Source: an uncultured Gammaproteobacteria bacterium
Lineage (GTDB): Bacteria > Pseudomonadota > Gammaproteobacteria > UBA9214
NCBI GenBank assembly: GCA_963748215.1
Contig: CAVVHS010000007.1
Span: 160,001 to 224,000 of the forward strand
Direction of reading: 5' to 3'
DNA length: 64,000 nt
Positions 48,137-62,316 of this stretch are shown piece by piece. The notes beneath the pieces were generated by a model that was not told the DNA's origin, did no database searches, and saw nothing but the letters and a program-made list of their open reading frames with translations. Position numbers and translations under genes: made by a program. The number at the start of each line of letters is the position of its first letter. Positions within the stretch are counted from its first letter, which is position 1.

Positions 48137-48298
48137 CCAGATAATTGATATAGGAAAAACTGCACCAAAGAACAATGTGTGGATGGTGCGATCTGCATCT
48201 GGCGGCCGCCTGGTGGGGATGGCGGTTGAATGCGTTTTGTGTTCTGCATCGGACATCTCTCGGTACAGTGAGGCATTCTTGCGCGAGTAGGGGAAAGG

Positions 48299-49006
48299 GT
48301 GACATACAACGATTGGCTCATCGAGATCGGTAAATCCAATAGGACAGCGAATAGTTATTCGGGTGCGATTGCCGGATCGATATCGGCTTGGGCTAGGGAA
48401 GCCGGCCTTTGTACGAAAAACCTAGATGATGTTTCATCCGTGGATGAGCTGCGCACGATCGCAGAAGGCCTAAAAGAGTTCGCGACTTTCAAAGAACAAA
48501 ACAAGCGCGGCAATTCCATGTATAGCAGCGCGTTGAAGGCCTACATAGAATATCGCAAACGTGAAGCTCCGGAGGAATTCGAGGCTGATGTTAATGACAT
48601 CATGTCGGATAACCAGATCGCCAAAACCGAAAAAGCGACATATATCAGCGCGCGTGTCGGGCAAGGCAAGTATCGTAGTGACTTGATCGGTTATTGGGAG
48701 AAGTGCGCGTTAACCGGTTTTGCCGATACTCGATTCCTGGTCGCTTCGCATATCAAGCCATGGCGTAAATCCAGCAACAGGGAGCGGCTGGACCCGTATA
48801 ATGGTCTGTTGCTGCTACCGAATCTCGACAAGGCTTTCGATCTCGGTTTTATAACCTTCGCAAGCGGTGGTCACATAATCGTTTCCAACCGTCTCGAAGA
48901 TGAAAGCAAGCTGGGTGTTTCTCGTGACATGCACTTGAGCCTCGAAGACTGTCATCAGGAGTACATGGAATTCCACCGAGATGTTGTCTTCGAGCGGCTT
49001 GTTTAA
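48299..49006 (+). CDS. HNH endonuclease (restriction-type) with an N-terminal helical domain
   Basis: RVGQGKYR, CALTG, LVASHIKPW, NGLLL..NLDKAFDLGFITF. Confidence 0.9.
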   Translation: MTYNDWLIEIGKSNRTANSYSGAIAGSISAWAREAGLCTKNLDDVSSVDELRTIAEGLKEFATFKEQNKRGNSMYSSALKAYIEYRKREAPEEFEADVNDIMSDNQIAKTEKATYISARVGQGKYRSDLIGYWEKCALTGFADTRFLVASHIKPWRKSSNRERLDPYNGLLLLPNLDKAFDLGFITFASGGHIIVSNRLEDESKLGVSRDMHLSLEDCHQEYMEFHRDVVFERLV

Positions 49007-49127
49007 AAAATAAAGTGACCGGATGCATTTATTGATAATTGATGGGAAATGCCAGTGAGCTGGTTTAATGACGATGGGTGCGTAATTTAGTTGCGCTTCA
49101 GGTACTAGATCAAGGGATGGTTTCAGT

Positions 49128-50039
49128 ATGTCTATATGGACAATCGACTTACTCCTGATGTTGCCAATGCTGTTGTCGCTTGGCGCACTATATTTTTGGA
49201 TATACAGAAAGAAACGTGAAGGACGTAAATTCCCGTTTTCCGATACTGTATTGCGTGTGCCGGGCCTGGGTTTGTCGCGCCAGCTCGACGAAATGTCATT
49301 TGATCTGGCAATTTATTTTGGGTTGATACCGCTTGCGCCGATTGTTGTCTACGCAATCTATTTACAACATCTTGTCGTTCATGAGCGCCAGCTTTCGTCC
49401 ATTGTCGCGATATTTCTATTTGTCGCGGCAGTGGCAGTAACTGCGTCTTTTGTGGTTCAGAGCGTCAGGCTTCTGAATCGAAGGTATTATTGCAAGCTGG
49501 GTCATGCGGGTGAAGTGGCTGTGGGTGGGGCGCTTAATGAGTTGATGCTGCAAGGCTATCACGTATTTCACGATATTCAGGGCGACAATGAATTCAATAT
49601 TGACCACCTCGTCGTCGGTCCTGCTGGCGTGTTTGCGGTCGAAACAAAAACCAAAACTAAATTGAAGAAGGGCGCACAAATCAAAGATACGCATAAAGTC
49701 ACCTTCGATGGCGATGCCTTGTATTTTCCGGATAATCCAGACTATCCGCACAAGGATTTTCTAAATCAAGCGGAGCGCGGTGCGAAGTGGATAAGCAAGT
49801 GGTTAACCGCGGCGGTGGGGGAACGCGTTGATGCGCTGCCGGTTCTGGTCATGCCGGGCTGGTTTATCACGATCAAGAAGCCAGGGCGAGTTATAGTATT
49901 GAATCATAAACAGTTACACGAGCTTCCCAAGGTAAGGAAACAGCCGCTAGACAAGGCAGCAATCACGCGGATCACATATCAGATCAAGCAGAAATGCCAG
50001 CATGACACCCTGGTCCCCGGGGTATTGGCTGCCAAATAA
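49128..50039 (+). CDS. Membrane-anchored NERD nuclease-domain protein
   Basis: 3 TM helices, then GHAGEVAV, VFHDI, NIDHLVVGPAGVFAVETK. Confidence 0.88.
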   Translation: MSIWTIDLLLMLPMLLSLGALYFWIYRKKREGRKFPFSDTVLRVPGLGLSRQLDEMSFDLAIYFGLIPLAPIVVYAIYLQHLVVHERQLSSIVAIFLFVAAVAVTASFVVQSVRLLNRRYYCKLGHAGEVAVGGALNELMLQGYHVFHDIQGDNEFNIDHLVVGPAGVFAVETKTKTKLKKGAQIKDTHKVTFDGDALYFPDNPDYPHKDFLNQAERGAKWISKWLTAAVGERVDALPVLVMPGWFITIKKPGRVIVLNHKQLHELPKVRKQPLDKAAITRITYQIKQKCQHDTLVPGVLAAK

Positions 50040-50103
50040 ACTGCAAGCATCAGCAAAATAAATGAATAAATGCGGTCAGACCCCGGTTTTCACTAAAGAT
50101 AAA

Positions 50104-50157
50104 TGGGGTCAGAGCACAATTATTCATAAAATTAAGAGTAATCGTGCTCTGACCCCA
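50104..50157. mobile_element. Mini inverted-repeat element, GGGGTCAG type
   Basis: TGGGGTCAGAGCAC / GTGCTCTGACCCCA, 14-bp perfect IR with an AT-rich spacer. Confidence 0.7.
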
Positions 50158-50218
50158 GTTTCTTGACCCTGTTATATGCAGGTTAAATGAATTACCGCAC
50201 GAAACTATTACCGTCTAG

Positions 50219-51187
50219 CTACAAACAGGCACTCGCTTCCCCTGATGTGCCGAGCCAGAACCCCAGGTTCTTGTCGAGAAATTCCTCCCAGGGCATGTAA
50301 TGGGAGCCGTCACACGAGAAGGTCAGGCCGATGAGGCCGTTGAAGATGTTCAGCATGCCTGAGCGCAGGTAGATGGTTTCATCCATGAACCTGAGGTCAC
50401 GGAAACAACTCAGGATCCTGGCAACAGCCTCTGCCGGGATGGCGGCATCGGCCGGATAGTCCCGGCGGGGATAGGCCAGGCAGAGATCGGGGTTGGTGAG
50501 CTCATCGATGCCGTGGATGCGGAAGCGATACGGGTCTTCCACCGTCCAGAGGGTGGCGCGGGAACTGGAGAAGTGCAGCTTGGCATGGAAAATTCCGTTG
50601 ACCGTTATCAGTTCTGCCAGCAGGTCCAGTACCTCGTCGATGTGCTCGTCCATCGGGCTGGTCGCCCGCACCTGGTGGAAGAGGCCGGAGCGGATGGCCG
50701 GATCGCCCTTGAGCTGCATCCATTGATCGGGTTGCTGGTACAGGGCCTGCGTGGCGGGCAGTTCACGCAGGTCGAAGTCCGCCCCGAGATAGCCGAGCAG
50801 GCGGCCGTCGTCTGCACGGATGAGCTGGACGGCCGTCAGTGAGGGGCGCCGGGCATTGCGACTGATGTAGGCGTCGGAGAGGGAGAAAGGCGCGCCGGCC
50901 AACGCACTGGCAAGATACGGGCGTTCGCTGCGGTCACGGCCGTACTGTGATTCCAGCAGGCCGTCGCGGGACGCATTGGAGGTGATCTGGTGCGCGCGCT
51001 CATCAAGCAGGTAGAGATACTTGCAGTACGGTAGCTCTGCCATGCCCTCCATCAGGCGCGCCTCCAGGGCCTGCCGATCCGGCCAGCGCTGTTTGCAGTC
51101 GTCCGCAATGTTGACCAGCGAGGCTGACAGCCAGCCTTTCAGGATGTCGCGCTGCCGGTCAATGGATTTCTGTAGAGTGCTTTTCAT
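50219..51187 (-). CDS. Soluble PDC/Cache-like sensor-domain protein
   Basis: YLYLLD...DRSERPYL...LSDAYIS...SLTAV...GYLGADF Cache-like pattern; no TM helix. Confidence 0.75.
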   Translation of the reverse strand: MKSTLQKSIDRQRDILKGWLSASLVNIADDCKQRWPDRQALEARLMEGMAELPYCKYLYLLDERAHQITSNASRDGLLESQYGRDRSERPYLASALAGAPFSLSDAYISRNARRPSLTAVQLIRADDGRLLGYLGADFDLRELPATQALYQQPDQWMQLKGDPAIRSGLFHQVRATSPMDEHIDEVLDLLAELITVNGIFHAKLHFSSSRATLWTVEDPYRFRIHGIDELTNPDLCLAYPRRDYPADAAIPAEAVARILSCFRDLRFMDETIYLRSGMLNIFNGLIGLTFSCDGSHYMPWEEFLDKNLGFWLGTSGEASACL

Positions 51188-51219
51188 ATGGCTGGCGGAG
51201 ATTATAGCCCAAAGTTAAT

Positions 51220-51429
51220 GGTGTCAGAGCACATTTGACTCTTACATAAGTACAAGGATCTTGCCCTGATTGAGCGGGTAACACATCAATACAGACGAGA
51301 TGCCTTCCTGCTGATGGCAAGGTTGTTGGCCGAATGAATTCGGCCCCGCAACGGGAATCTATCCACTCGATTTGGGGAAGCGCCAGGCAGAAAATGTGCT
51401 CTGACATCATTGTTTCCACTCTGACACCC
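51220..51429. mobile_element. IR-bounded element, GGTGTCAG type
   Basis: GGTGTCAGAGCACATTT (51220) / AAATGTGCTCTGACATC (51392), 16/17 match; extra CTCTGACACCC at 51419; the internal ~70 bp is repeated at 59150-59219. Confidence 0.65.
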
Positions 51430-51449
51430 ATTATCTTACGGAGCATGAA

Positions 51450-51797
51450 GTGACCACTGTAGACAAGAATCCGCCGTCCTGTTCACTTCCTGCTGGCCCG
51501 GATCTGTCGAAGCTGGCGGTTGTGGAACTTTCGCCGGTGGAACGGCTGGCGGACTACACGGCGGCCATGAGTCTCGCGAATGCCGAGGCAGAAAAGCGGC
51601 TCGGTGAACACATGCTGTTGTCCTGGTATGACCGCGACAGGGATTTCGAGTCACCGCAGCATGCCAGTGAGTGCCACCTGGACAGTGCCGTACCCGGGTA
51701 TGCGGATTACGGGGTCTACCACGGTGCAACGCTCAAGGTGGATATCGAGCAGGGTCGCTTTGTGTTTTTCTATCTGCCTGTCGAGATGCCGGAATAA
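51450..51797 (+). CDS. AF1514-like family protein
   Basis: MLLSWYDR...ESP...EC...PGY..YG..HGA.LKVDI..GRFVF; GGAG RBS. Confidence 0.7.
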   Translation: MTTVDKNPPSCSLPAGPDLSKLAVVELSPVERLADYTAAMSLANAEAEKRLGEHMLLSWYDRDRDFESPQHASECHLDSAVPGYADYGVYHGATLKVDIEQGRFVFFYLPVEMPE

Positions 51798-51872
51798 CCG
51801 GCCACTGCCTCCATTTGTCCTGAAAACATCGGTAAACTGACAGCTCTGTCCTTGAAGCCGCGGAGAACTGCC

Positions 51873-52277
51873 TTGTCATCCGACGATGAAACCCGGAGCG
51901 AAGAACCCGTGCCCTCTGCCCTGGTGGCTGCGCATATTGTCTACGGGCTGCATGCGCTTGCTATCGTGCTGGGTATAACCGGGGGCGCAACCGTGATCGG
52001 CGGCTTCGTCGGGAGTGCGCCATCGATCATCGCCGTCATTATCAACTATGTGAAACGCGGTGGTGCGCGCGGCACCTGGGCTGCATCGCACTATCGCTGG
52101 CAAATCCGCACATTCTGGTTTGCATTGCTGTGGCTGATCATTGCCATGCTGTTGATTGTGACCCTGGTCGGCGCCCCGGTTGGGCTGGGCCTGCTGCTCG
52201 CCCTGACTCTCTGGTTGATCTATCGTATTGCCCGCGGCTGGCTGCGGCTGCTCGACAAGCAGCCAATGTATGTTTGA
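51873..52277 (+). CDS. DUF4870-like membrane protein
   Basis: IIAVIINYVKR, SHYRWQIRTFW, WLIYRIARGW. Confidence 0.8.
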   Translation: MSSDDETRSEEPVPSALVAAHIVYGLHALAIVLGITGGATVIGGFVGSAPSIIAVIINYVKRGGARGTWAASHYRWQIRTFWFALLWLIIAMLLIVTLVGAPVGLGLLLALTLWLIYRIARGWLRLLDKQPMYV

Positions 52278-52514
52278 CAGAGGACAGACTGGATAAATGA
52301 GGTCAGAGCACAATTTCTCTCAGTTAAGTCCATGGATAAACGCATTGCACGAAGCGGTTGATAGTGACAGGACATGAAAGTCATGTACCACTGTACGAAC
52401 AGAACATACCTTCTCCCGGAGGGAGAGGGAGTATGTGGGACACAAGTGGGCCGGGTACGTTTTTCACTACTATAAACGACATATGTGCACTGACTTTATT
52501 CATTCCATACTCCG

Positions 52515-53551
52515 GTGAGCGGTGAAAGCCAGCAGGCAGCAAGTCCCGGCGGCCGCGGCAAACGGCTTGCATCCGCCGTCGGCTGGGGTGTCGTCCTGCT
52601 CGTCATCCTGGCGGGGAGCCGGTTCATGACCGGTATGCCCGGCAGCTCCTGGTCGGGACCGTTGCCGCCCCTGACCGGTGAGCAACAGCGGATCCATGAC
52701 AATCTCAAGCGCCATGTTGCGGAGCTGGCCGGCCGCATCGGCGAGCGCAACGTCTGGCGCCCCGAGGCCATGACGGACGCCGCCGGTTATATCCGCAAGA
52801 CCCTGGAAGACGCGGGCTACGCGGTCAGTGTCCAGCCCTTTACCAGCCGCGGTCAGACCGTGAACAACATCGAGGCCGTACTGCCCGGGCACGGTGCGGC
52901 GGATGAAAGTCATTGTCGCCGGGGCGCATTACGATTCGGTGGTCGGCTCCCCGGGGGCCAACGACAATGCCTCGGGGGTGGCCGCGCTGCTGGAACTTGC
53001 CCGCTTGCTGGCCGGGACGGCGCTGCCGCGTAGCGTGCGCTTCGTGGCCTTTGCCAATGAGGAAGCACCGTTCTTCTACGGTGATGAGATGGGGAGCAAG
53101 CGGTATGCCGCCCGTGCGCGTGCCCAGGGCGAGCGCATCGCGGCGATGCTCTCGCTGGAGACGATCGGTTATTACACCGATCAGCCGGCCAGCCAGCGCT
53201 ATCCCTTTCCGTTCAACCTGTTCTACCCCGATACCGGTAATTTCATCGGTTTTGTCGGCGATCTCTCGTCCTGGCGCCTGGTGCGCCGGGCGACCGGGGC
53301 CTTCCGTGCCTCGACGGCCTTTCCCTCGGAAGGCGTGGCGGCACCGCGCGCGACGAAGGGTGTGCACTGGTCGGACCACTGGTCCTTCTGGGAGGCCGGA
53401 TACCCGGCCATCATGGTCACGGACACCGCGCTGTACCGTTACCCGCATTACCACGCAGTCGACTGACACACCGGACAAGCTGGATTACACCGGCCTGGCA
53501 CGGGTGACCGGCGGGCTGGCGGAGGTGATTGCGGCACTGGCGGGGGAGTAA
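52515..53551 (+). pseudogene. M28-family peptidase with two apparent frameshifts (pseudogene or sequencing indels)
   Basis: Continuous M28 motifs over three frames: NNIEA / GAHYDS, PGANDNASG, NEE, SDH, YH / DTPDKLDY; shifts near 52907 and 53457. Confidence 0.85.
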
Positions 53552-53563
53552 CAACAATAAAAA

Positions 53564-53990
53564 GGGGTAGTGCCTTTTTCTTGGTAGCATGATCGAGGAA
53601 TAAGGAATGGTGCGTAAAACGCACCCTACAATTTAATGCTGGCCCTCTAAACTGGAGCAGTTCGTTGGGTGAATTAAAACAGGACGTAGTGCCACAGCTG
53701 TCGCACATAATCTTCAGGAAGGTGTATTGAATGCGGCTATTCCAGTGATCAGATTGTGGGCAGTACGTGGACATGACATTCCAGAACAACAATGATGTCA
53801 TACCCGCGAAGGCGGGTATCCAGTAAGTCACTGATTAGCAGGGGCACAAAGGTTCCTGGATTCCCGCCTTCGCGGGAATGACGGCTATGTGGGACAGCAG
53901 TGGGGCAGTGCCCTTTTCCTGGTAGCATGATCGAGGAATAAGCAGGGTGCGCTGTGCGCACCATTCCCGGTGCGTGAAACGCACCCTACA
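53564..53990. repeat. Repeat mosaic: 41-bp direct repeat, GTAG REPs and a GTCAT-type palindromic pair
   Basis: GGGG(T/C)AGTGCC..TTTTC.TGGTAGCATGATCGAGGAATAAG at 53564 and 53902; GTCATACCCGCGAAGGCGGGTATCCAG...CTGGATTCCCGCCTTCGCGGGAATGAC. Confidence 0.8.
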
Positions 53991-54080
53991 ATTTAAAAAT
54001 AAATGGGGGTCAGATCCCGGTTTTCACTAATATTCACATGCAAACGCGCACCAGCCTGGATTTTGTCTTGAAAGCTCATC

Positions 54081-54584
54081 ATGATCATTCACTGCACCCG
54101 TAAACTCGCTGCAAAGCTACCCGTGGTATCCGGCACGCCATTGACGGAAACCAGTCCGCTGGGCAGCTGGCATGCCAACCTGTACAGCATTGACCGGCGC
54201 AACTGTGTGCTGTTCTGCCACGACGAGCTGCGCTACACGCTGTTCCTGCCCGGCCTGCGCAAGCCGCAGTTCGCGGAGCTGGGCCGCTGGTTCCGGGAAT
54301 TGTTTACGGCATCGCTCGCGTATACGGGTATGTCCGATAACCAGGTGCGGCGCGCGGAACTCGCGTTGGGTCCGGTTGCGTTCGATACCTGTACCGACCG
54401 CTCGGTACTTGGCAGTCTGAACCAGATGCGTTTCCTGCTGGATGGCCGGGTGAGCGAGGTCAGCGATGTGATGTTGCTCAATCCGCTGTCGGTGAATCGC
54501 TGGTTGTGTCATTACCCGGTGCGCCGTGGCAAGGCGGTCTGGATGGCGGATGAGGCCATGTGTGAGCGGGTGGCGACGTTGTGA
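54081..54584 (+). CDS. DUF6933-like hypothetical protein
   Basis: MIIHCTRKL...PLGSWHANL...DRR.CVLF...TDRSVLGSLN. Confidence 0.7.
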   Translation: MIIHCTRKLAAKLPVVSGTPLTETSPLGSWHANLYSIDRRNCVLFCHDELRYTLFLPGLRKPQFAELGRWFRELFTASLAYTGMSDNQVRRAELALGPVAFDTCTDRSVLGSLNQMRFLLDGRVSEVSDVMLLNPLSVNRWLCHYPVRRGKAVWMADEAMCERVATL

Positions 54585-54609
54585 CGCGGAGGTTCTACAG
54601 TCATTGGAG

Positions 54610-54691
54610 TAATTGGGGACAGACCACGTTTTTCTCTGAAAGATTGCTGACTTCGTCTTCCTTGCAGAAAAACGTGGTCTGTCCCCAATTA
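54610..54691. mobile_element. Mini inverted-repeat element, GGGGACAG type
   Basis: 26-bp perfect IR TAATTGGGGACAGACCACGTTTTTCT / AGAAAAACGTGGTCTGTCCCCAATTA. Confidence 0.8.
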
Positions 54692-54729
54692 CCAAAATTA
54701 CCAAAGGCATTGGTTATACGGAGGCAGAT

Positions 54730-55251
54730 ATGATGGAGAAGCTGGCACGCATCGGCAATAGCAGACTCTACTGGCTGGCAGTGGCATTGATCGGAATCTC
54801 GTTCGAAGCGGTTGGACTGTATTATCAGCACGTGCTCGAGGAGATGCCCTGTGTGCTCTGCATCCATGTGCGTCTCTGGCTGATGGCCCTGATCATTGTT
54901 GCGCTGCTGGCGCAATTACAGCTGCGGCTGAGATTCAAACCGATACCGGTGCATCTGCTGACGGTGGTGATTGCAGCGGGGCTGCTGGAGCGTTCATACC
55001 AGCTGCTCGGCACGGAACGCGGCTTTGTGGTCGGGGACTGTGGCTTTGACCTGGGACTGCCGGCCTGGTTCACGCCCGATGCGTGGCTGCCGAGCCTGTT
55101 CCAGGTGCAGGTCTCATGCGGTTATACGCCGGAGTTGCTGTTCGGCGTCACCATGGCGCAGGCCCTGATTGTGGTGTCCGCCAACTTTTGTGATGATCAC
55201 TGTCACCATGCTGGTGGCGGCTGGTGCGGAGCCTCACAGGTCAGCTACTGA
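54730..55251 (+). CDS. dsbB: DsbB-family disulfide bond formation protein (probable 3' frameshift)
   Basis: PCVLCIHVR plus a second Cys pair; the last TM helix continues in another frame near 55182. Confidence 0.8.
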   Translation: MMEKLARIGNSRLYWLAVALIGISFEAVGLYYQHVLEEMPCVLCIHVRLWLMALIIVALLAQLQLRLRFKPIPVHLLTVVIAAGLLERSYQLLGTERGFVVGDCGFDLGLPAWFTPDAWLPSLFQVQVSCGYTPELLFGVTMAQALIVVSANFCDDHCHHAGGGWCGASQVSY

Positions 55252-55389
55252 ATAATCGGGGGCAGACTGAGTTCGTGGGGTGCGCTGTGCGCACCATACC
55301 CGGTGCGTGAAACGCACCCTACAATTTAATGAATAAAAACAGGAGTCAGACCCTGTTTTCGGGCCTGATCCCATTGAAGGAATTTATTC

Positions 55390-56472
55390 ATGCACATCCT
55401 GGTTCTTGTCCTCGCCTGGCTAACTCCGGCACTGATCGCCGAAATGCTCGGCTGGCGTGGTGTCTGGGGCGGTGGGGGTGCATTCGGTGATTACATCATT
55501 CCCATACCCGTCGCGGGTGGCGCAATGCACGTGCCCAGCTTTGTGGTGCTGGCAGTGGTCGTATTCGCGAACCGGCGCAGGACCGAAGCCGGGCGAAGCT
55601 TCCTGCCCCTGTTCGCATTTTGCATTGCCGCCGCGGGGCTCGCCGCCATGCTCGATTTCGATCGTCTGAACAGCTGGCTGTTCACGGATTACGAACCCTC
55701 TGGTTCGCCGTTCCGGTTTGATAGCAATCCGTTTTTCCTGTTCGTGACGACTGACGCACTCTGGGCCGGCATTTACTCGCTCACGATCGGCAAGGCCTCG
55801 CCGGTACGTAGCTGGTTGGTATTGCCACTCGTGCCATTCGTGGTGATTGCAGGCCACGCCCTGGCTTACCGCACGGGCGGCCCGGTGTTCAAGATTGGTC
55901 ACGCGTTTCCGGGCAGTTCACGGGGAGAGGAGACCTTGATGATCTATACCTCGGCACCCTACGAGGAGGCGGGATTCCTCGCTTGGCTGGATACGAGTTC
56001 GCTGTCGCGGCCGTGGACAAATCCCAATGCCGAGCACGTCGCCGTGGTTTTTACGAACAGCCTGCAGGCGATGAAGTGGCATTGGAAAAAAGATGCAGAA
56101 ACGGGTGATGAACACATCATTGCGACCATCTGCCTGTACGAAGAAGACCAGTCTGTGGTCCCGTACGCGGGATACCACGACTGTTTCGCCGGGCACGAGA
56201 CAGCCGGTGAGACACTGGCCAGGCTCACCACGGAGGAATCGACGGGACTCGGTCGCGACATCGATAGCTGGTATGCGCTGGCCCGCCTGTGCGACGACGT
56301 CAAAATCCCGGACACGCCGTCAACGGATATCGAACGGGTGGGTATGTGCCAGGGCATGCACCGTGTCTATCCCAAACGTCTGCGTCAGTTTATAGCGCGG
56401 TACGGCGAGGACTCGCCACAGGTTCGTTTCGTCCGCGCAGAAGATGCAGCGCGGAACCTGTCTGCACCGTAA
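55390..56472 (+). CDS. Hypothetical membrane protein with a Cys-containing soluble C-terminal domain
   Basis: About 5 TM helices, then a hydrophilic domain; AAGGA RBS. Confidence 0.75.
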   Translation: MHILVLVLAWLTPALIAEMLGWRGVWGGGGAFGDYIIPIPVAGGAMHVPSFVVLAVVVFANRRRTEAGRSFLPLFAFCIAAAGLAAMLDFDRLNSWLFTDYEPSGSPFRFDSNPFFLFVTTDALWAGIYSLTIGKASPVRSWLVLPLVPFVVIAGHALAYRTGGPVFKIGHAFPGSSRGEETLMIYTSAPYEEAGFLAWLDTSSLSRPWTNPNAEHVAVVFTNSLQAMKWHWKKDAETGDEHIIATICLYEEDQSVVPYAGYHDCFAGHETAGETLARLTTEESTGLGRDIDSWYALARLCDDVKIPDTPSTDIERVGMCQGMHRVYPKRLRQFIARYGEDSPQVRFVRAEDAARNLSAP

Positions 56473-56531
56473 TCAAGCGCTATGGTAATGACCGGGGTCA
56501 GATCCCGGTTTCCTCCGCCGGTTTTACCTGC

Positions 56532-56712
56532 GCGTGAAACGCACCCTGCAATTCAAGGCTGGCCTTCAAACTGGGGCAGTTCGTGGGGTGCGCTGTGCGC
56601 ACCCTTCCCGGTGCGTGAAACGCACCCTGCAATTTAAGGCTGACTTCTAACCTGGAGCAGTTCGTGGGGCGCGCTATGCGCACCCTTCCCGGTGCGTGAA
56701 ACGCACCCTGCA
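56532..56712. repeat. Tandem REP-doublet array, 81-bp period
   Basis: GCGTGAAACGCACCCTGCA at 56532, 56613 and 56694; same unit type at 59015-59147. Confidence 0.88.
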
Positions 56713-56766
56713 TTTAATGTTGAATAATGAAGGGAATTATCGGGGGTCAGCGCACAATTTCATACC

Positions 56767-56824
56767 TTATTTGGCCATGATGATTCCGCAGGCGTCGCGT
56801 GAAACACCTGCACAGCCATGCTTG
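56767..56824 (-). pseudogene. Fragment of the 3' end of a sodC homologue
   Basis: 48/54 nt identical to 58076-58129; encodes KHGCAGVSRDACGIIMAK*. Confidence 0.85.
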
Positions 56825-56864
56825 CGCACGATTAAATGGGCGCTGACCCCTTTGACCGATCGTG

Positions 56865-57713
56865 TTATTCAGTCGGACTTTGCGTGTCATTCTGCGTGCG
56901 ACTCTCGAGCTGCCCCAGTTCGGCCTCGAGTTTGGTCAACGCTTCCCTGTACGTCCCGACCTGTACCCTGGCCGCAGCGAGTGCATCACCGGCGGTGCTG
57001 GCCCTGATTCTTTCCTGCGCCAGTTCCTGTGTAACCGCTTGGAGTTCAGATTGCAGTGTTGCCAGTTGTTCGTCCCGGCTGGCGAGTGCGCTGTGCAGCT
57101 GGTTGCGTTCCGCGGTGAGAGACTGGTTATGTGCCTGATGGTTATTGATCAGCTGGTGCTGCTGTTCCAGTGTGGCGCTGGAGGTGTTCAGCGTTTCGAC
57201 CAGTTCCGTCACGCGCACCCGCAAGGCCTGTTGCTCGCGGCTACAGTACGTCATCTTGTCGGACAGTGATGCTTCGGTTGCAAGACTGTCCTGCAGCTCG
57301 TCGCGTAACTGCTCAAGCATGCTGCGGGCCTCGTCGAGTTCGCTGCTTTTAGCCGTCAATTGTTCCTGTGTCTGCTTCAGTTCGGCGCTGAGGGGATTTT
57401 CCCGTGCTGCCGGGGCCGTCGCAGGCGCCGCGGGATAGGCCTGGTATTGGCCGCCCGGTGGATAGTGAGGCGGGAATTGACCATAGCCCTGTTGAGGCGC
57501 AGGCCAGCGAGGGGCTTGTTGCCAGGTTTGCCCATACCCGCCCGGGTAGGAGGGCGGATACCAGCCCGGCGCAACGCCGCTGGCGGGTACAGGCGTTTGT
57601 CCGGCCGGTGCGGCCGATGCGTTTGTTGCTGTGTCTTCCGGCCAGGCACTGCCGGGAAGGCTGCCGATCAGCATGGCGGCAGCAAGGACGACAAACGACG
57701 TCAATTTGTTCAT
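56865..57713 (-). CDS. Secreted protein with a Pro/Gln/Tyr-rich linker and a long coiled coil
   Basis: Signal peptide, PGGYGQ/YPPGGQY segment, ~170-aa heptad-rich region. Confidence 0.75.
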   Translation of the reverse strand: MNKLTSFVVLAAAMLIGSLPGSAWPEDTATNASAAPAGQTPVPASGVAPGWYPPSYPGGYGQTWQQAPRWPAPQQGYGQFPPHYPPGGQYQAYPAAPATAPAARENPLSAELKQTQEQLTAKSSELDEARSMLEQLRDELQDSLATEASLSDKMTYCSREQQALRVRVTELVETLNTSSATLEQQHQLINNHQAHNQSLTAERNQLHSALASRDEQLATLQSELQAVTQELAQERIRASTAGDALAAARVQVGTYREALTKLEAELGQLESRTQNDTQSPTE

Positions 57714-58071
57714 GACATGCCCCGTGTTTGAATTATTCTTGGTATCGGTAGCTGTTGATTTTACTCAAATCAAGAGCGAATCAAGGGCCCGGATACCTTC
57801 TTCCGTAAGGTATCCGGGCCCCTGGCTGCTTCATTGTGATCCCCACGGCAACTGCTCCTGCGTCGCCCAAGGCGCCTGCTTTGGGTGCACACGGCTCTGG
57901 CATGGCCCAGGCCAGTCTCTCGATCGCTGCGCGATCTCACCTTCTCCTGCCGTCGTCTCCCCAACCTTTCCCGGTGAATAGACCGGAGGGAGAGGGGGTG
58001 TGGGTCAGCAGAGAGCCAGCTTTTTTACAGGTATTCGGTCCCTTGTTGCTGGCCAGCCCTTTTTACTGACT

Positions 58072-58674
58072 TCAATTGGCCTTGATGATTCCACAGGCGT
58101 CGCGTGTACCACCTGCACAGCCTTTCTTGAGATCGCTTTCCTGGTCGCAGTAAGTATCTTCGTTGGTGTGAATGATAAAGCTGCTGCCGTCTGCGTCGAA
58201 CAGGCTCAGACGACCGGGGGACAGGGTAATCCGGTCGGTCGTATGCGTCATGGATCCCTTGCCGTTCTTTACCTCGATATTGACGAGATCGCCCATATGA
58301 TAGGGGTGATTGATGTCTGCTGCAGGCACCTCGTCGCCCGCGCTGTCCGGTCGCGTCTGACCGAATGGTCCCGGATCATGGTGACCTTTGGCTGCACTGC
58401 AGGGTTCACATGCACCCGTTTCGTGAATGTGCACCGCATGCTTGCCGTCAGGCAGGCCCTCTACCATGAGATGGACGATAACTGCCTTGATACCTTCGTC
58501 CGTCTCCTCTTCCGTGAGCATCGCAGTCCCCGAAATCTTCGGGTCTGTACAGCCTTTGATCTCGGACGTTGCGGTTAGCTGGGCGGCATATCCGGGCAGC
58601 GACAGGCAGGCCAGCGCCGCTGCAGCAATCAGGGACAGGCCGGCACGATGGGCGGATTTTGCTGGTGTGTTCAT
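58072..58674 (-). CDS. sodC: Periplasmic Cu/Zn superoxide dismutase
   Basis: HAVHIHE, GHHDP, HMGDLVN, IIH, GGTRDACGII; AAGGAGG RBS; signal peptide. Confidence 0.92.
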   Translation of the reverse strand: MNTPAKSAHRAGLSLIAAAALACLSLPGYAAQLTATSEIKGCTDPKISGTAMLTEEETDEGIKAVIVHLMVEGLPDGKHAVHIHETGACEPCSAAKGHHDPGPFGQTRPDSAGDEVPAADINHPYHMGDLVNIEVKNGKGSMTHTTDRITLSPGRLSLFDADGSSFIIHTNEDTYCDQESDLKKGCAGGTRDACGIIKAN

Positions 58675-58939
58675 CGATGACTCCTCCTTTTGTAGTTGTT
58701 CATCCGGTTTTCGGGAGCATACACCCGATTTGGAATTCGTGGGGCAGGACATTATTTTTTAGGAGCGCATCTCATGGCCGTTCCCGCACATGGCCCAGGC
58801 CAGCCTCTCGACCCGGGCTATGCCCGTAAAAACGGTCTCACCTTCTCCATGTGCTCCACGGCACTTGTACATGGCCCAGGCCAGTTTCTCGACCGGTTCC
58901 CGGTCTCACCTTCTCCTGAACATCGCGCGATAGATATTG

Positions 58940-59260
58940 GCGACGGAACCACACGGAAGAACACGGAAATATCAATGCAGGACCACTGCTGTCCCACATA
59001 AGCATCAGGAAAGTTCGTAGGGTGCGCTGTGCGCACTCTTTCCCGGTGCGTAAAACGCACCCTACAATTCAAGGCTGGCCCTCTAAACTGGCGCAGTTCG
59101 TAGGGTGCGCTGTGCGCACCATTCCCGGTGCGTAAAACGCACCCTACTACTGATGGCAAGGTTGTTGGCCGAATGAATTCGGCCCTGCAACGGTAATCTA
59201 CCCACGCGATTTGGGGATGAGCCAGTCAATGTATGTGGGACAGCAGTCGCTCTGACCCCC
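58940..59260. repeat. REP mosaic (81-bp units, CACGGAA module, ACTGCTGTCCCACATA / TATGTGGGACAGCAGT IR)
   Basis: Matches to 56532-56712, 51311-51380 and 53887-53901. Confidence 0.8.
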
Positions 59261-59375
59261 ATTTCCTGCGCATAAAACCGGATCCTGATCAGGGTGATAG
59301 TTGAATTGCCGAGTTTCTGCATGATCTTACCTGCAAATCATTGCCACCTCCCTTCCTGCTACCTATGATCCCCTT

Positions 59376-59610
59376 ATGCCGCTCTTCCGTTTTCACCCTG
59401 CCGTGGCGCGCTGGTTCACGGCGCATTTTGCCGGTCCGCCCGGTTCGGGCAAGACCCTGGCCGCGCCGTTGCCGAATGAGACCCGGGTGTTGTATGTCTC
59501 GCCGCTGAAGGCCCTGTCCAACGACATCCACAAGAACCTCGAGCTGCCGCTGAATGGTATCCGTGACCAGCTGCTGGCAGCGGGGCTGTTTGATGTGCCC
59601 ATCACGGCAT
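59376..59610 (+). pseudogene. Lhr-family helicase N-terminal remnant with internal deletions
   Basis: FHPAVARWF, PGSGKTLAA and VLYVSPLKALSNDI..NL..PL; the Q motif is missing and the ORF is truncated. Confidence 0.85.
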
Positions 59611-59713
59611 GCGAATTAAATAGGTTCAGAGCAAAATTTTCGCTAAAATCAAACAAGTATCCGGATCAAAGTCCGCCTGTCCCCCGGACGCCAACCCTTT
59701 GCCGACACACTCC

Positions 59714-60802
59714 ATGACACCCACCGAGATCTTCGAATCCCTGCGCCGTGATGTGATCGGGCAGGATGAGGCTCTGCGCGACATGGCCGTCGCCATTTAC
59801 AAGCACCTGATCGAGCACTCGGCCGGCAATGTGCTCATGATCGGCAATTCGGGCACCGGCAAGACCACCATCATGAAGGCCGTGGAACGGTTCTTCGCGG
59901 AGGCTGAAGGATATGAAAAATTCTCGACCATTATCCGCATCAACGCCAACCTCGTGGCTGACCTGGCGAACCGCGGCCAGCAGAGCAATGTGGTGATGGA
60001 CCGGCTGGCCCGCCACGCCGCCGAGCTCCTGGGTGAGAAGGCCGACCTGGAGACGGTGAGCGAGTACGTGGCCCACGGCATCGTCTGTGTCGACGAGGTC
60101 GACAAGATCCGCGCCGTGGTGGGCGGGGAGCCGAGTGTCAGAGGGATCACCGCCCAGGACAGCCTGCTCACCCTGATGGAGAACGAACATGTGCAGGTGG
60201 AGATGCGCTATTTCGAATCCGGCCGCTGGCATACGCAGGTCGAACCGGTCAATACCACACATGTCCTGTTCGTTGCCGGCGGCGCTTTCGAGGAGCTGTT
60301 TGACCAGGTGCTCGAGCGCGTCACCAAGCATTCCGGGATTGATAAATTCTACAAACAGGTGATCAGCGCCGACGGCAGTTACCAGCGCAAGTTTGAATTC
60401 AGGCTGAGTGAGCACCTGATCCAGGAAGATATCTTCAACTACGGCATGTCACCCCAATTCCTGTCGCGCTTCGACAGCACGATCATGCTGGGGGACCTGG
60501 GGGCTAAACACCTGGTGGAGATATTCAGGAATACGGAGGATGCCATATGGCCGCAGGCGGTAGAATATTTCCGGAAAATGGGTATCGACATGAACATCAC
60601 GGATGAAGCCGCCTTCCTGATTGCCGATATCGCGGCAGGCAAGAACCGGCTCGGTGCCCGTGCCCTGCGCGAGGTTTTTGGCTCGATTATCAAGCGGCTC
60701 GAGTTCGATCCCGTCGCCTCGGGGCTAGTGCAGGAGCGGGACGGCCAGCAGGTGCTCGTGATCACCCGGGAGATAGTCGAGGCGGCCCGGCAGGGCTATT
60801 AA
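59714..60802 (+). CDS. Atypical ClpX/HslU-like AAA+ ATPase
   Basis: VIGQDEA, GNSGTGKT Walker A, VDEVDKI Walker B, LFVAGGAF, LGARALR; no zinc-binding domain. Confidence 0.85.
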   Translation: MTPTEIFESLRRDVIGQDEALRDMAVAIYKHLIEHSAGNVLMIGNSGTGKTTIMKAVERFFAEAEGYEKFSTIIRINANLVADLANRGQQSNVVMDRLARHAAELLGEKADLETVSEYVAHGIVCVDEVDKIRAVVGGEPSVRGITAQDSLLTLMENEHVQVEMRYFESGRWHTQVEPVNTTHVLFVAGGAFEELFDQVLERVTKHSGIDKFYKQVISADGSYQRKFEFRLSEHLIQEDIFNYGMSPQFLSRFDSTIMLGDLGAKHLVEIFRNTEDAIWPQAVEYFRKMGIDMNITDEAAFLIADIAAGKNRLGARALREVFGSIIKRLEFDPVASGLVQERDGQQVLVITREIVEAARQGY

Positions 60803-61155
60803 CGGGGCTGGATACGAATTCTGTAGTTATTCATATTTTCAGGTCTTTTTTTGCAGCTGGGGACTAATACCTGAGTCATTTCCATGCTGGAAGTGCGGAG
60901 GCCCGTTGCAGGAACTTCTGTTGCCACTGGCGCGCCACGAGGAATGCCCGCACTGCCGGACGCAGCTGCACGTGCACCGGATGTGTGTGTATTTCGATAC
61001 GTCAAAATAAAGGGGTCGGATACATTATTCCGTAGATTTCCAAAAAAGTATTCGATTCCATTAACTCGGAAGTAATCAGGATAGTCATCCCCCCAATTAA
61101 TTAACCCCTTGTATGGTCGATAAGGTAATTTTCTTCCTTCAATCAGGACGATGTC

Positions 61156-62279
61156 ATGCTTATCAAACAAAAGGACAACTCCCTGGAGCAGATCGATTAT
61201 TTGCAGGACTTGCTTGAGCGTGACTTGCCTGAAAAAACAAAGGCTATGATCGAGCGTGAGCTTAAGTGCCTCTGTTCCGGTAATAAAGGTGAGGAGTCAT
61301 CTGCCTATTACCTCGATTTTTCGTTCAAGCCAGCCAAAAACTGGGCGCTGATCCATGATCTGCGGCTGGAGCATGAAGGGTTTGTGGCTCAGATCGACCA
61401 TCTACTGATCGGCAGGATGCTTGACATCTATGTCATCGAATCTAAGAACTACAACCAGGGTGTAGCCATTTCCGATGAAGGAGATTTCAGTTACTTCTAT
61501 GGTAAGAAGCCGATTCCGATCGAATCACCCATTGCGCAGAACGAGCGACATATTCGACTTCTGGACCGCTATTTGACCGAAAATAACCTCCTGCCCAAAC
61601 GTCTGGGTGTGACCCTGCGACCCAATTATAAAAACATCGTGCTGATATCACCGACCTCACGACTTACGAAGCCCGCTAGAGGGCTGTACGATTGCAGTTC
61701 GGTCATGAAGTCAGACAAGTTCAGGGAGCGTTTCATGATGATCTGAAAGATGATTCGCCCGCCGCGTTCATCAGTCTTGCCAAGCTGATTTCAGAGCATA
61801 GTCTGCGCACATTCGCCGAATCCCTGGTGCTGAGGCATAAACCGGCCACGATCGATTACCTGCAGAAATTCGGGCTTGCGGGTAACCCGCAGACAGATGG
61901 GGTCGCAGGTAACAATACACCTGAAACAGAAGTTGCTGCAGAAATGGTTGATCAGGATGCGATTGTCCCGGCTTGTCCGCGGTGCGGGGCAGATATGGTG
62001 CGACGTACGGCAATGAAGGGTAAAAATGCCGGTCAGGAATTTTGGGGCTGTTCAGGATTTCCCAAGTGTTGGGGGGTGCTGCAAGATGGTATCGAGAATC
62101 CAGCGCCCGCTGAAGTGTCCACTGATGTAGAGGAAATGCCCTGTTGTCCGAAATGTGGCGGTAGCATGATCAAGTGTATTGCCAGGAAGGGTAAGAATGC
62201 CGGTCAGGAATTTCGGGGATGCGCCAGCTATCCAAAGTGCAGGGGAGTGCTGGACCTTGCATTGGCTGCGAACAAATAA
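61156..62279 (+). CDS. NERD nuclease plus two topoisomerase-type C4 zinc ribbons (one frameshift near 61735)
   Basis: GEESSAYYL, IHDLRL, QIDHLLI, VIESKN; then CPRCG..M..R...FWGCSGFPKC and CPKCG...GCASYPKC in a second frame. Confidence 0.85.
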
Positions 62280-62316
62280 CCCGTGATGCATTGCGTGAAC
62301 TCGTGTATGGACCCTG

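What the first reader, a model, noticed from the sequence alone, without database searches (positions are those of the whole stretch)
50068..62316. Cassette-like gene array punctuated by GGGG(T/A)CAG inverted-repeat sites, with no integron machinery
Seen: nearly every gene boundary from 50 to 62 kb carries a site of one family, while I found none in the first 46 kb. Sites: 50072 (GCGGTCAGACCCCGGTTTTCACTAA); 50104/50157 (perfect IR); 51220/51408; 52299/52494; 54005 (GGGGGTCAGATCCCGGTTTTCACTAA); 54610/54691 (26-bp perfect IR); 55341/55372; 56494; 56743/56850; 57785/57821 (15-bp perfect GGGCCCGG variant); 59249; 59622/59685; 61012. Between them sit unrelated one- or two-gene modules in both orientations. 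Gene fragments (sodC, Lhr, NemA) end at or lie inside these sites. Paired arms match each other but differ between pairs, and right ends often have a partial echo (TGACCC, CTGACACCC). Established, from memory and to be verified: a GGGGWSAS terminal motif flanks some RAYT-related HUH tyrosine transposase genes (TIRYT). Inference: a trans-acting HUH enzyme captures and stacks genes at these sites, an integron-analogous gene-accretion system.
Basis: partly seen in the sequence, partly recalled or inferred. Interest (0 to 1): 0.82.

Follow-up and report, generated by a model that had tools for sequence, protein, structure and literature searches.

The report
Transposon-end palindromes crowding plastic gene islands
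The repeated GGGG..CAG sites are copies of the end-sequences of a small family of jumping genes that have piled up between genes in a few unusually reshuffled stretches of this bacterium's chromosome; they are not an integron, and whether they actively move genes is still open.

Summary
The sites are real and non-random. The strict motif GGGG[AT]CAGA occurs 7 times in window 50-60 kb against 0.31 expected.

They are not attC sites. The genome has a true integron on another contig, and a model of its attC sites finds none in the window.

They are terminal-inverted-repeat (TIR) palindromes of TIRYT-type Y1/HUH transposons:
- The same genome holds three such genes flanked by these TIRs.
- TIRYT genes in other taxa carry the same GGGGACAGACCACG ends.
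- The literature gives the GGGGWSAS consensus.

Of 41 compact palindromes, 33 lie in four islands making up about 2.3% of the genome, and 37 are extragenic. The family occurs in all 18 congeners searched.

Island gene order is scrambled between congeners, while the site-free flank is collinear. Synteny-block ends and two gene fragments abut the sites.

Gene capture by the HUH enzyme is not shown. The matched inverted-repeat pairs (four in this window) enclose non-coding DNA, genes face both ways, and other repeat families crowd the same region.

Verdict: a known kind of element with an unusual island-restricted distribution. The integron analogy remains a minority reading, at about 0.12.

The parts
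50072..50096 (+). Half-site of subfamily S3 (GCGGTCAGACCCCGGTTTTCACTAA), just after the NERD gene
   Evidence: It matches the arm of complete S3 palindromes on contig C6 up to the palindrome centre.
50100..50161 (.). Compact 52-bp palindrome of subfamily S2 (GGGGTCAGAGCAC arms), between convergent genes
   Evidence: Best hit of palindrome model R2 at 73.6 bits. DNA fold -18.7 kcal/mol, z=-10.4.
51220..51411 (.). S2 palindrome split by a nested 137-bp repeat (R4, 51250-51386). A partial echo of the right arm lies at 51418-51428.
   Evidence: 20-nt arms 95% complementary. A metagenome contig joint 51249->51387 skips the insert (X8, short side of 20 nt). R4 also lies inside another GGGG palindrome at C7:249657-249840.
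52299..52494 (.). S2-type left arm (GAGGTCAGAGCACAATTT) with a degenerate right partner
   Evidence: The pair was not recovered by the repeat finder. An X8 contig stops matching exactly at 52299 (table 8, record 27).
54005..54034 (+). S3 half-site, 47 nt upstream of the DUF6933 gene
54609..54692 (.). S4 palindrome with 27-nt perfect arms. Its GGGGACAGACCACGTTTTTC arms equal the ends of the TIRYT element on contig C9.
   Evidence: Model R2 gives 53.2 bits. Fold z=-10.2.
55341..55372 (+). Degenerate S3-like half-site, 18 nt upstream of the 360-aa orphan gene
56494..56513 (+). S3 half-site, 22 nt after the 360-aa gene
56743..56850 (.). Inverted pair (GGGGTCAGCGC arms) enclosing a 47-nt copy of the sodC 3' end (56771-56817)
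   Evidence: 17-nt arms at 88%. The fragment is 43/47 identical to 58076-58122.
59240..59260 (-). Solo S2-like arm (GGGGGTCAGAGCG)
59376..59646 (+). Lhr 5' fragment (59376-59610) ending about 12 nt before a solo S2-like arm (59622-59646)
   Evidence: DEAD-box N-terminal match. 144/154 identity to the intact lhr at window-equivalent 64386-64539. Full-length Lhr confirmed.
61012..61035 (+). Weak single head match (GGGGTCGGATAC). Membership is doubtful.
49128..62279 (.). One- or two-gene modules between the sites:
- NERD, 49128-50039 (+)
- dCache-like, 50219-51187 (-)
- DUF5619 plus a membrane protein, 51450-52277 (+)
- M28-like gene with frame breaks, 52515-53551 (+)
- DUF6933, 54081-54584 (+)
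- DsbB, 54730-55251 (+)
- 360-aa orphan, 55390-56472 (+)
- coiled-coil protein, 56865-57713 (-)
- SodC, 58072-58752 (-)
- AAA ATPase, 59699-60802 (+)
- NERD plus Topo zinc ribbon, with a frame break, 61156-62279 (+)
   Evidence: Pfam scans. M28 is named from memory of the translated sequence; Pfam gave no hit for its two frames. Gene map.

Best explanation
The sites are non-autonomous copies of the terminal inverted repeats of TIRYT-type Y1 (HUH) tyrosine transposons ('TIRtrons'). Most are two ends set back to back as a hairpin-forming palindrome of about 50 bp, analogous to a REPIN. Some are split by a nested insert and some are reduced to half-sites.

Full elements in the same genome supply the enzyme in trans: two 843-bp copies on contig C9 and one element on C3.

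The copies have accumulated in intergenic DNA, mostly at gene 3' ends. They are concentrated in four gene-order-unstable islands that are shared across the genus. Window 50-64 kb is the start of one island, which runs on to about 80 kb in window terms.

Once present, the palindromes probably also act as rearrangement junctions, through adjacent deletion or inversion by the transposase, recombination between repeats, or palindrome breakage. That would explain the gene fragments and the block ends at their edges.

Shown here:
- family membership of the sites;
- the transposase genes with these ends;
- clustering;
- extragenic position;
- absence of attC character;
- island scrambling.

Inferred, not shown:
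- catalysis by the transposase;
- single-strand hairpin recognition;
- mobilisation in trans;
- a role as rearrangement junctions.

It is not a dedicated gene-capture machine.
For: **1. Transposase genes with these ends.**
- There are five Y1_Tnp matches in the genome.
- The C9 gene has HVH and YIELNPVRA motifs and is flanked by inverted GGGGACAGACCACGTTTT. It occurs as two 843-bp copies, 99.9% identical, in different flanks.
- The C3 gene is flanked by inverted (A/G)GGGTCAGACTCGATTGATT at 109287/110125.
- These proteins score 68-70 bits against the RAYT equivalog model, below its cut-off of 80. A classical RAYT elsewhere in the genome scores 131.8.

**2. Same ends in other taxa.** I examined 22 of the 28 related TIRYT loci from other taxa. 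Fourteen are flanked by (A)ATAGGGGACAGACCACG ends and one by GGGTCAGAGAACAATTG, which is S2-like.

**3. Literature.** Passages read: TIRs of TIRYT genes fit GGGGWSAS, and TIR repeats occur singly, as dimers or in groups (PMC3733652; PMC6006769).

**4. Direct link to the window.** The palindrome at 54609-54692 has both arms identical over 20 nt to the C9 element ends.

**5. Hairpin family.** In 18 aligned palindromes the outer stem GGGGTCAGA is conserved. Seven of 14 predicted pairs show compensatory changes.

**6. Distribution.**
- 40 short-range inverted pairs are found against 4 in a reversed-genome control.
- There are 41 distinct compact palindromes at E<1e-3, and 33 lie in four islands totalling about 82 kb. 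Of the 23 not used to train the model, 15 lie in those islands.
- 37 of 41 lie outside my rough gene calls, although 79% of the genome is called coding. Flanking gene arrangements are tandem 24, convergent 10, divergent 3.

**7. Not attC.** A model built from 12 attC sites of the genome's own integron recovers 24 sites there, 12 of them not used in training. It finds none in the window at E<=10.

**8. Not Tn3-derived.** No Tn3-family transposase was found in this 95%-complete genome.
Against: - No TIRYT gene with S2- or S3-type ends was found in this assembly (95% complete). These are the two commonest types in the window, so their enzyme is unidentified.
- Classical REPs in the Pseudomonas fluorescens group are spread over the stable core and avoid variable regions (PMC3390384, passages). 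The restriction to plastic islands seen here is not what simple accumulation predicts.
- Synteny-block ends against the closest congener fall within 10 nt of a site edge in 7 of 16 cases, against 1.95 expected (P about 0.001). This hints at more than passive residence.
- TIRYT presence and palindrome number do not track cleanly across congeners. Five of the 18 congeners lack a TIRYT at E<=1e-20, yet two of those five (75% and 83% complete) have 47-49 model matches.
Confidence: 0.65

Rival explanations
1. Active shuffling at the sites. The palindromes are recombination sites at which a trans-acting TIRYT (HUH) enzyme excises and reinserts modules of one or two genes. The islands would then be HUH-driven analogues of integron cassette arrays.
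For: - Islands at about 90% nucleotide identity to G008 are broken into single-gene blocks that are reordered or inverted. The site-free window 1-47 kb stays collinear with G002:C4.
- Block ends lie within 10 nt of site edges in 7 of 16 cases against 1.95 expected.
- One block (C3:106007-107117) travels as site-gene-palindrome in both genomes.
- The M28-DsbB junction holds nothing in G006, a DUF6933 gene bounded by a half-site and a palindrome here, and other genes after a GGGGTCGG palindrome in G018.
- Four genes have no match among the rows shown for 18 congeners (150 of 257 rows listed), and all sit next to sites: NERD, DUF6933 and the 360-aa orphan beside co-oriented S3 half-sites, NERD-Zn near the weak head match at 61012. 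The 360-aa protein has one 36% relative among 400 other genomes of the class.
- Lhr and sodC fragments abut arms.
- Contigs of a near-identical population stop matching at 52299 and 50184.
Against: - Matched arm pairs never bracket a gene in the window. They enclose 25-190 bp of non-coding DNA or the R4 repeat.
- Genes face both ways and include ordinary operons, such as an ABC transporter and Topo VI.
- There is no fixed gene-to-site geometry.
- Sites also flank a TolC-like gene far from any island.
- Block ends at repeat edges are equally expected from RecA recombination between repeats, or from BLAST extending through a conserved repeat and stopping in diverged spacer.
- The null counts the TIRtron's own two ends and one shared junction.
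- Contig break points in metagenomes often reflect repeats or other organisms.
Confidence: 0.12
2. Enzyme-independent instability. The palindromes are only fragile, repeated DNA. Hairpin or cruciform breakage, replication slippage and RecA recombination between dispersed copies produce the half-sites, fragments and scrambling, with no role for the transposase after insertion.
For: - Half-sites keep one arm up to the palindrome centre and then diverge.
- Each palindrome offers both orientations, so any two can give either inversion or deletion.
- Several subfamilies co-occur in all four islands.
- The R4 repeat sits in the loop of two palindromes with different arms.
Against: - Arms are only 13-27 bp of near-identity, which is short for efficient homologous exchange.
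- Tandem partial 'echo' copies of ends (window 50166, 51418-51428; C5:132053/132068; C9:315900-315975) look more like abortive end processing than slippage.
Confidence: 0.15
3. Host-serving REP-like elements. The palindromes are kept because they act as terminators, mRNA stabilisers or protein-binding sites for the genes they follow, and the clustering reflects function.
For: - They are enriched between convergent and tandem genes and depleted from divergent gaps.
- The hairpins are stable.
- The family is kept in all 18 congeners searched, and the C3-type TIRYT sits in the orthologous island in G008, G002 and G018.
Against: - Sites at orthologous gene boundaries differ in subfamily or are absent between congeners.
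- Many are degenerate, split or half.
- No T-run follows most of them (by eye).
- There is no Rfam match.
Confidence: 0.06
4. A cluster of integron attC sites lacking an integrase (CALIN), or Tn3-derived miniature elements.
For: - The genome has an integron integrase (443.7 bits against a cut-off of 265, with one in-frame TGA).
- Tn3-family ends also start with GGGG (recalled, not from a call).
Against: - The attC model has 0 hits in the window and 24 in the true array.
- True cassettes there are all on one strand.
- No Tn3 transposase was found.
- The same ends flank Y1 genes here and in 15 of 22 loci elsewhere.
Confidence: 0.02

Closest known systems
TIRtrons: TIRYT (TIR-associated Y1 tyrosine transposase) genes and their TIR repeat families (Di Nocera et al. 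2013, PMC3733652; subclass 2.1 of Quentin et al. 2018, PMC6006769)
   Same: - A Y1/HUH gene is flanked by inverted repeats that fit GGGGWSAS.
- The same repeats are scattered as singles, dimers and groups.
- Several TIRYT genes with different TIRs occur in one genome.
   Different: - Here the repeats are concentrated in four conserved, gene-order-unstable islands.
- Two abundant arm types (S2, S3) have no cognate gene in the assembly.
- I read passages only. Figure 9 and the supplementary alignment of that paper were not available to me.
REPIN-RAYT systems (Bertels & Rainey 2011, PMC3116915; Nunvar et al. 2010, PMC2817692; search listings and abstracts only)
   Same: - Inverted doublets form a hairpin as the likely mobile unit.
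- The transposase relative acts in trans.
- The elements are extragenic.
- One TIRYT is inherited vertically in the orthologous place.
   Different: - There is no GTAG head, and each arm is not itself a palindrome.
- Copy number is tens, not hundreds.
- The proteins fall below the RAYT equivalog cut-off.
- In the P. fluorescens group, REPs mark stable core DNA and avoid variable regions (PMC3390384). The pattern here is the opposite.
Integron cassette arrays and attC sites
   Same: Imperfect palindromes of 50-100 bp stand between unrelated small genes, and gene order varies between relatives.
   Different: - There is no adjacent integrase.
- The sites lack the AAC...GTT core.
- Genes lie on both strands.
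- The genome's own attC model does not match.
IS200/IS605 single-strand 'peel and paste' transposons
   Same: The catalytic family is the same (Pfam Y1_Tnp), so hairpin-guided single-strand cleavage is the mechanism to expect.
   Different: - Those elements have subterminal hairpins rather than true terminal inverted repeats.
- No step of the mechanism was tested here.
- The comparison rests on recalled knowledge and the abstract of PMC6006769.
Mosaic intergenic repeat regions (E. coli BIMEs; Neisseria NIMEs with dRS3 repeats). Recalled, not from a call.
   Same: Several short repeat families are nested in the same intergenic stretches, and those stretches are linked with variable gene content.
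   Different: The repeat sequences and enzymes are different. The resemblance is recalled only.

Membership tests
TIRYT / TIRtron TIR repeats | A Y1 (HUH) transposase gene is present in the genome, with HUH and catalytic Tyr motifs | tested here: met
   PF01797 matches above cut-off at five places. HVH and YIELNPVRA can be read in the translations. Pfam and NCBIfam scans.
TIRYT / TIRtron TIR repeats | The gene is flanked by terminal inverted repeats rather than by REP hairpins | tested here: met
   C9 copies at 315975/316800 and 333308/334133, and the C3 copy at 109287/110125. The unit of identity between the C9 copies ends at the TIRs.
TIRYT / TIRtron TIR repeats | The TIRs fit GGGG[AT][CG]A[CG] | tested here: met
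   GGGGACAG and GGGGTCAG. The consensus is as printed in PMC3733652 and PMC6006769.
TIRYT / TIRtron TIR repeats | The window's sites are copies of those TIRs | tested here: met
   The arms at 54609-54692 are identical over 20 nt to the C9 ends. S2 arms resemble the ends of locus L051. For S3 no gene was found.
TIRYT / TIRtron TIR repeats | The enzyme binds or cleaves the repeats | not testable with these tools
   This needs biochemistry.
REPIN-RAYT | The protein reaches the RAYT equivalog score (NF047646, cut-off 80 bits) | tested here: not met
   68.3-70.1 bits for the three TIRYT-type proteins. The separate RAYT on C2 scores 131.8.
REPIN-RAYT | The REP unit is itself a short palindrome with a GTAG head | tested here: not met
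   The head is GGGGWCAG, and hairpins form between the two arms rather than within one.
REPIN-RAYT | Inverted doublets form a hairpin and are extragenic | tested here: met
Integron / CALIN | attC sites with conserved AAC...GTT cores and an imperfect palindrome | tested here: not met
   Model R1 gives 24 hits in the C2 array and 0 in the window at E<=10. IntegronFinder itself was not available.
Integron / CALIN | An integron integrase next to the array | tested here: not met
   The only match above cut-off is at C2:97400-98338, on another contig.
Integron / CALIN | Cassettes are co-oriented | tested here: not met
   Genes lie on both strands in the window. They lie on one strand in the true array.
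Tn3-derived miniature elements | A Tn3-family transposase is available in the genome | tested here: not met
   PF01526 gives no match in the own genome, which is 95% complete.

The most novel reading that the evidence does not exclude
The palindromes are working recombination sites. A trans-acting TIRYT (HUH) enzyme cuts at their outer edges and moves single-gene modules in, out and around. On this reading the four islands, conserved across a genus, are an HUH-driven counterpart of integron cassette arrays, and new genes such as the DUF6933, NERD and 360-aa orphans enter at half-sites.
Probability: 0.12. Interest if true: 0.85.

Novelty: new variant of a known kind. Interest (0 to 1): 0.5.

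Why it matters
If the sites are only resident TIR copies, this is a clean and well-documented example of a little-studied relative of the REP/RAYT systems. Its distribution is the reverse of the textbook one: few copies, packed into plastic islands rather than spread over the stable core.

If the sites are also the junctions of the gene-scale shuffling seen between congeners, they would give a second, integrase-free route by which bacteria build and reorder small accessory-gene arrays. They would also give TIRYT enzymes a testable cellular role.

Tried and rejected
**attC / CALIN.** I built a covariance model from 12 attC sites of the genome's own integron. It found nothing in the window or in four of the five other island stretches searched, and two weak hits (E 0.63 and 2.6) in the fifth, L012. 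Rejected.

**Tn3-derived elements.** No Tn3 transposase was found. Rejected.

**Rfam.** No family matches 44-64 kb at E<=0.1.

**tRNA or integrase at the island edge.** There is no tRNA in the window. No recombinase appears among the Pfam hits for 40-64 kb.

**Gene-bearing TIR-bounded elements.** I searched for long-range inward pairs of one subfamily.
- Apart from the TIRtrons themselves, they bracket a TolC-like gene (C4:41271-43018) and an ABC-transporter pair (C7:237112-239192).
- In both cases one 'end' belongs to a compact palindrome of its own. I did not take these as transposons.

**TIRYT presence against palindrome number in congeners.** There is no clean relation.

**Fisher test of islands against the rest** (45/65 versus 248/1850 gaps with a head match). 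The islands were defined by the feature itself, so I use these figures as description only.

**Metagenome contigs.**
- Parts without cover are no evidence of absence: 47.8-50.2 kb in X7 and X8, and 61.6-62.2 kb in X8.
- The joints 57950->58862 and those between 46.7 and 58.9 kb lie in other repeat families and were set aside.
- The contigs are short and break at repeats, so no piece spans the array.

**Tools and files not available.**
- Supplementary files of papers were not seen, including Di Nocera's alignment of TIRYTs and his REPtron list.
- I found no paper describing TIRYT or REP palindromes as borders of shuffled gene arrays in searches. These cover open-access text only.

Full report
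**What is there.**
- GGGGTCAGA occurs 66 times in the genome. It occurs 5 times in the window, all between 50105 and 59259.
- The strict motif GGGG[AT]CAGA occurs 7 times in 50-60 kb against 0.31 expected (P=4e-8). It occurs once in the first 46 kb against 1.44 expected.
- Two sites are compact, very stable hairpins: 50100-50161 and 54609-54692, with DNA fold z about -10.
- Three are inverted pairs with longer interiors: 51220/51408, 52299/52494 (a weak partner) and 56743/56850.
- The rest are single arms or half-sites: 50072, 54005, 55341, 56494, 59249 and 59622.
- The hairpin at 57785/57821 is real but belongs to no such family.
- The proposed pairings 55341/55372 and 59622/59685 do not fold.

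**What the sites are.** The genome has five Y1 (HUH) transposase matches.
- One, on C9, is present as two 843-bp copies. They are 99.9% identical, lie in different flanks, and end in inverted GGGGACAGACCACGTTTT.
- One, on C3, ends in inverted (A/G)GGGTCAGACTCGATTGATT.
- The arms of the window palindrome at 54609-54692 equal the C9 ends over 20 of 20 bases on both sides.
- I examined 22 of the 28 loci encoding relatives of the C9 protein in other taxa. Fourteen are flanked by (A)ATAGGGGACAGACCACG and one by an S2-like GGGTCAGAGAACAATTG.
- The literature describes exactly this. TIRYT genes are flanked by TIRs that fit GGGGWSAS, and TIR copies occur singly, as dimers or in groups (PMC3733652, passages; PMC6006769, passages).
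- The three TIRYT-type proteins score 68-70 bits against NCBI's RAYT equivalog (cut-off 80). A separate classical RAYT on C2, flanked by GTAG-type REPs, scores 131.8.
- An alignment of 18 compact palindromes shows a conserved outer stem and an inner stem that co-varies, with 7 of 14 predicted pairs showing compensatory changes.

**What they are not.** The genome holds a genuine integron on C2.
- Its integrase scores 443.7 bits against a cut-off of 265, with one in-frame TGA.
- Upstream of it lies an array of classical attC sites with co-oriented small ORFs.
- A covariance model built from 12 of those sites recovers 24 in that array, 12 of them not used for training. It recovers none in the window at E<=10.
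- No Tn3-family transposase is present.
- No Rfam family matches.

**Distribution.**
- A motif-and-arm search finds 40 short-range inverted pairs against 4 in a reversed-genome control.
- The palindrome model finds 89 matches at E<=1 when both strands are counted. I collapsed these to 41 distinct loci at E<1e-3.
- Thirty-three of the 41 lie in four islands: C3:100-140 kb, C5:131-140 kb, C6:580-591 kb and C7:210-240 kb. Together these span about 82 kb, or 2.3% of the genome.
- Of the 23 loci not used in training, 15 lie in those islands.
- Different arm subfamilies share the same islands.
- Thirty-seven of the 41 lie outside my rough gene calls, which cover 79% of the genome. Flanking gene arrangements are tandem 24, convergent 10 and divergent 3.
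- In the islands, 45 of 65 intergenic gaps hold a head match, against 248 of 1850 elsewhere. This is descriptive only, because the islands were defined by the feature.
- The other islands look like the window: small, unrelated genes on both strands with a palindrome at most boundaries.
- The window's island continues past the window end, through lhr, a Topo VI operon and ABC transporters, to about C7:240 kb.
- The palindrome family is found in 18 of 18 congeners and in 2 of 12 genomes of other genera. TIRYT relatives are found in 13 of 18 congeners.

**Evidence bearing on gene shuffling.**
- *Collinear flank.* Window 1-47.3 kb is collinear with G002:C4:202-223 kb, and largely so with G017 and G018.
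- *Scattered array.* From 50 kb on, the homologues of the array genes lie on different contigs or in a different order in every congener.
- *A reused junction.* M28 and DsbB are adjacent in G006. In G018 they are separated by other genes that follow a GGGGTCGG palindrome. Here they are separated by a DUF6933 gene bounded by a half-site and a palindrome.
- *Genes seen only in this genome.* Four array genes have no match among the rows shown for the 18 congeners; one search listed 150 of 257 matches, so this is not proof of absence. The four are NERD, DUF6933, the 360-aa orphan and NERD-Zn.
- *The orphan.* The 360-aa protein has a single 36% relative among 400 other genomes of the class.
- *Half-site orientation.* All four S3 half-sites in the window point the same way. 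They stand next to three of these four genes (NERD, DUF6933, 360-aa orphan); NERD-Zn has only the weak head match at 61012 nearby.
- *The C3 island.* Against G008 it is about 90% identical but broken into single-gene blocks that are moved or inverted.
- *Block ends.* Of 16 block ends, 7 lie within 10 nt of a site's outer edge, against 1.95 expected if ends fell anywhere in the gap (P about 0.001).
- *Gene fragments.* Two abut arms: an Lhr 5' copy ending about 12 nt before the 59622 arm, and a sodC 3' copy inside the 56743/56850 pair.
- *Metagenome contigs.* In a near-identical population, one contig stops matching exactly at 52299 and another at 50184. A joint removes the 137-bp R4 insert from the 51220/51408 palindrome.

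**Why this does not yet make an integron analogue.**
- The matched arm pairs bracket non-coding DNA or the R4 repeat, never a gene.
- Genes face both ways and include ordinary operons.
- Spacing between gene and site is irregular. Several boundaries have two or three sites and others have none.
- Unrelated repeat families (a GTAG-type REP with 266 hits, a 220-bp repeat, and R4) crowd the same region.
- Block ends at the far edge of a repeat are expected equally from recombination between repeats, and from BLAST running through a conserved repeat into diverged spacer.
- The null model counts the TIRtron's own ends.
- The metagenome contigs are short, break at repeats, and may mix organisms. The R4 joint has a short side of only 20 nt.
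- The frame breaks in the M28-like gene coincide with single-base differences in those contigs (table 4). They may be assembly errors rather than decay.

**Most likely mechanism.**
- By family, the enzyme should cut single-stranded DNA next to a hairpin through a 5'-phosphotyrosine link. The palindromes offer such hairpins.
- I take the palindromes to be end-to-end minimal elements mobilised in trans.
- They are tolerated only between genes, and mainly at 3' ends.
- They accumulate in regions where insertions and rearrangements are tolerated.
- As a by-product, they probably serve as junctions for deletions, inversions and insertions.
- The steps shown are membership, the transposase genes with these ends, two near-identical element copies, covariation, extragenic position, clustering and scrambling.
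- Catalysis, strand choice, trans action and any role in moving genes are inferred.

**Comparison and verdict.**
- The elements are members of the TIRYT/TIRtron kind.
- They work like REPINs but fail two REPIN-RAYT membership tests: the GTAG-headed self-palindromic unit and the equivalog score.
- They are not attC sites.
- What is unusual is the distribution. In the P. fluorescens group, REPs mark the stable core and variable regions are REP deserts (PMC3390384). Here a low-copy family is confined to plastic islands that are kept across a genus.
- I rate this a new variant of a known kind, with interest 0.5. The active-shuffling reading stands at about 0.12.

Noticed in passing
G000 contig C2:78000-98338 (locus L010): A chromosomal integron. 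The integrase is at C2:97400-98338 (443.7 bits, one in-frame TGA). At least 24 classical attC sites lie upstream, with small ORFs all on the minus strand.
   Followed up: partly
window 51250-51386; also C7:249657-249840: A 137-bp repeat (R4) with its own short inverted ends. It sits in the loop of two GGGG palindromes that have different arms, and it has many copies in congeners. A metagenome contig joint lacks the window copy. The palindrome centre may be an insertion target.
   Followed up: partly
window 53690-53909: A repeat of about 220 bp with internal CCCGCGAAGGCGGG hairpins. At least 8 copies at 86-94% identity are scattered over contigs C5, C6, C7, C8 and C9.
   Followed up: no
window 20000-46000 and 53550-59150; genome-wide: A GTAG-headed REP family (GTAGGGTGCG...CGCACCCTAC) with 266 hits, also clustered. 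The densest bin is next to the Y1 gene at C9:71348-72160. A separate classical RAYT at C2:111833-112333 is flanked by GTAGGAGCGGATC REPs.
   Followed up: partly
window 52515-53551 and 55186: The M28-like gene is split over frames. Metagenome contigs lack one base near 52909-52911 and near 53454-53459, and one contig lacks a base at 55186 in DsbB. These frame breaks may be assembly errors or strain-specific (table 4).
   Followed up: no
window 47543-50039: A low-G+C (48%) trio of DUF1353, HNH endonuclease and NERD genes lies just before the first site. A second NERD gene fused to Topo zinc ribbons, with a frame break, is at 61156-62279.
   Followed up: no
L015:7194-10069 (C7:231194-234069, beyond the window): A bacterial Topo VI B and A subunit gene pair lies inside the same island.
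   Followed up: no
window 50166 and 51418-51428; C5:132053-132068; C9:315900-315975; locus L039: Tandem partial 'echo' copies of TIR ends stand beside complete ends, including beside a full TIRYT element. No explanation has been tested.
   Followed up: no
window 59376-59610 and C7:224195-228502: The Lhr fragment is a partial copy of the 5' end of the intact lhr, which lies 4.6 kb downstream. The stretch between them holds the AAA ATPase, NERD-Zn, NemA fragment, a 241-aa membrane protein and a SatD gene.
   Followed up: partly
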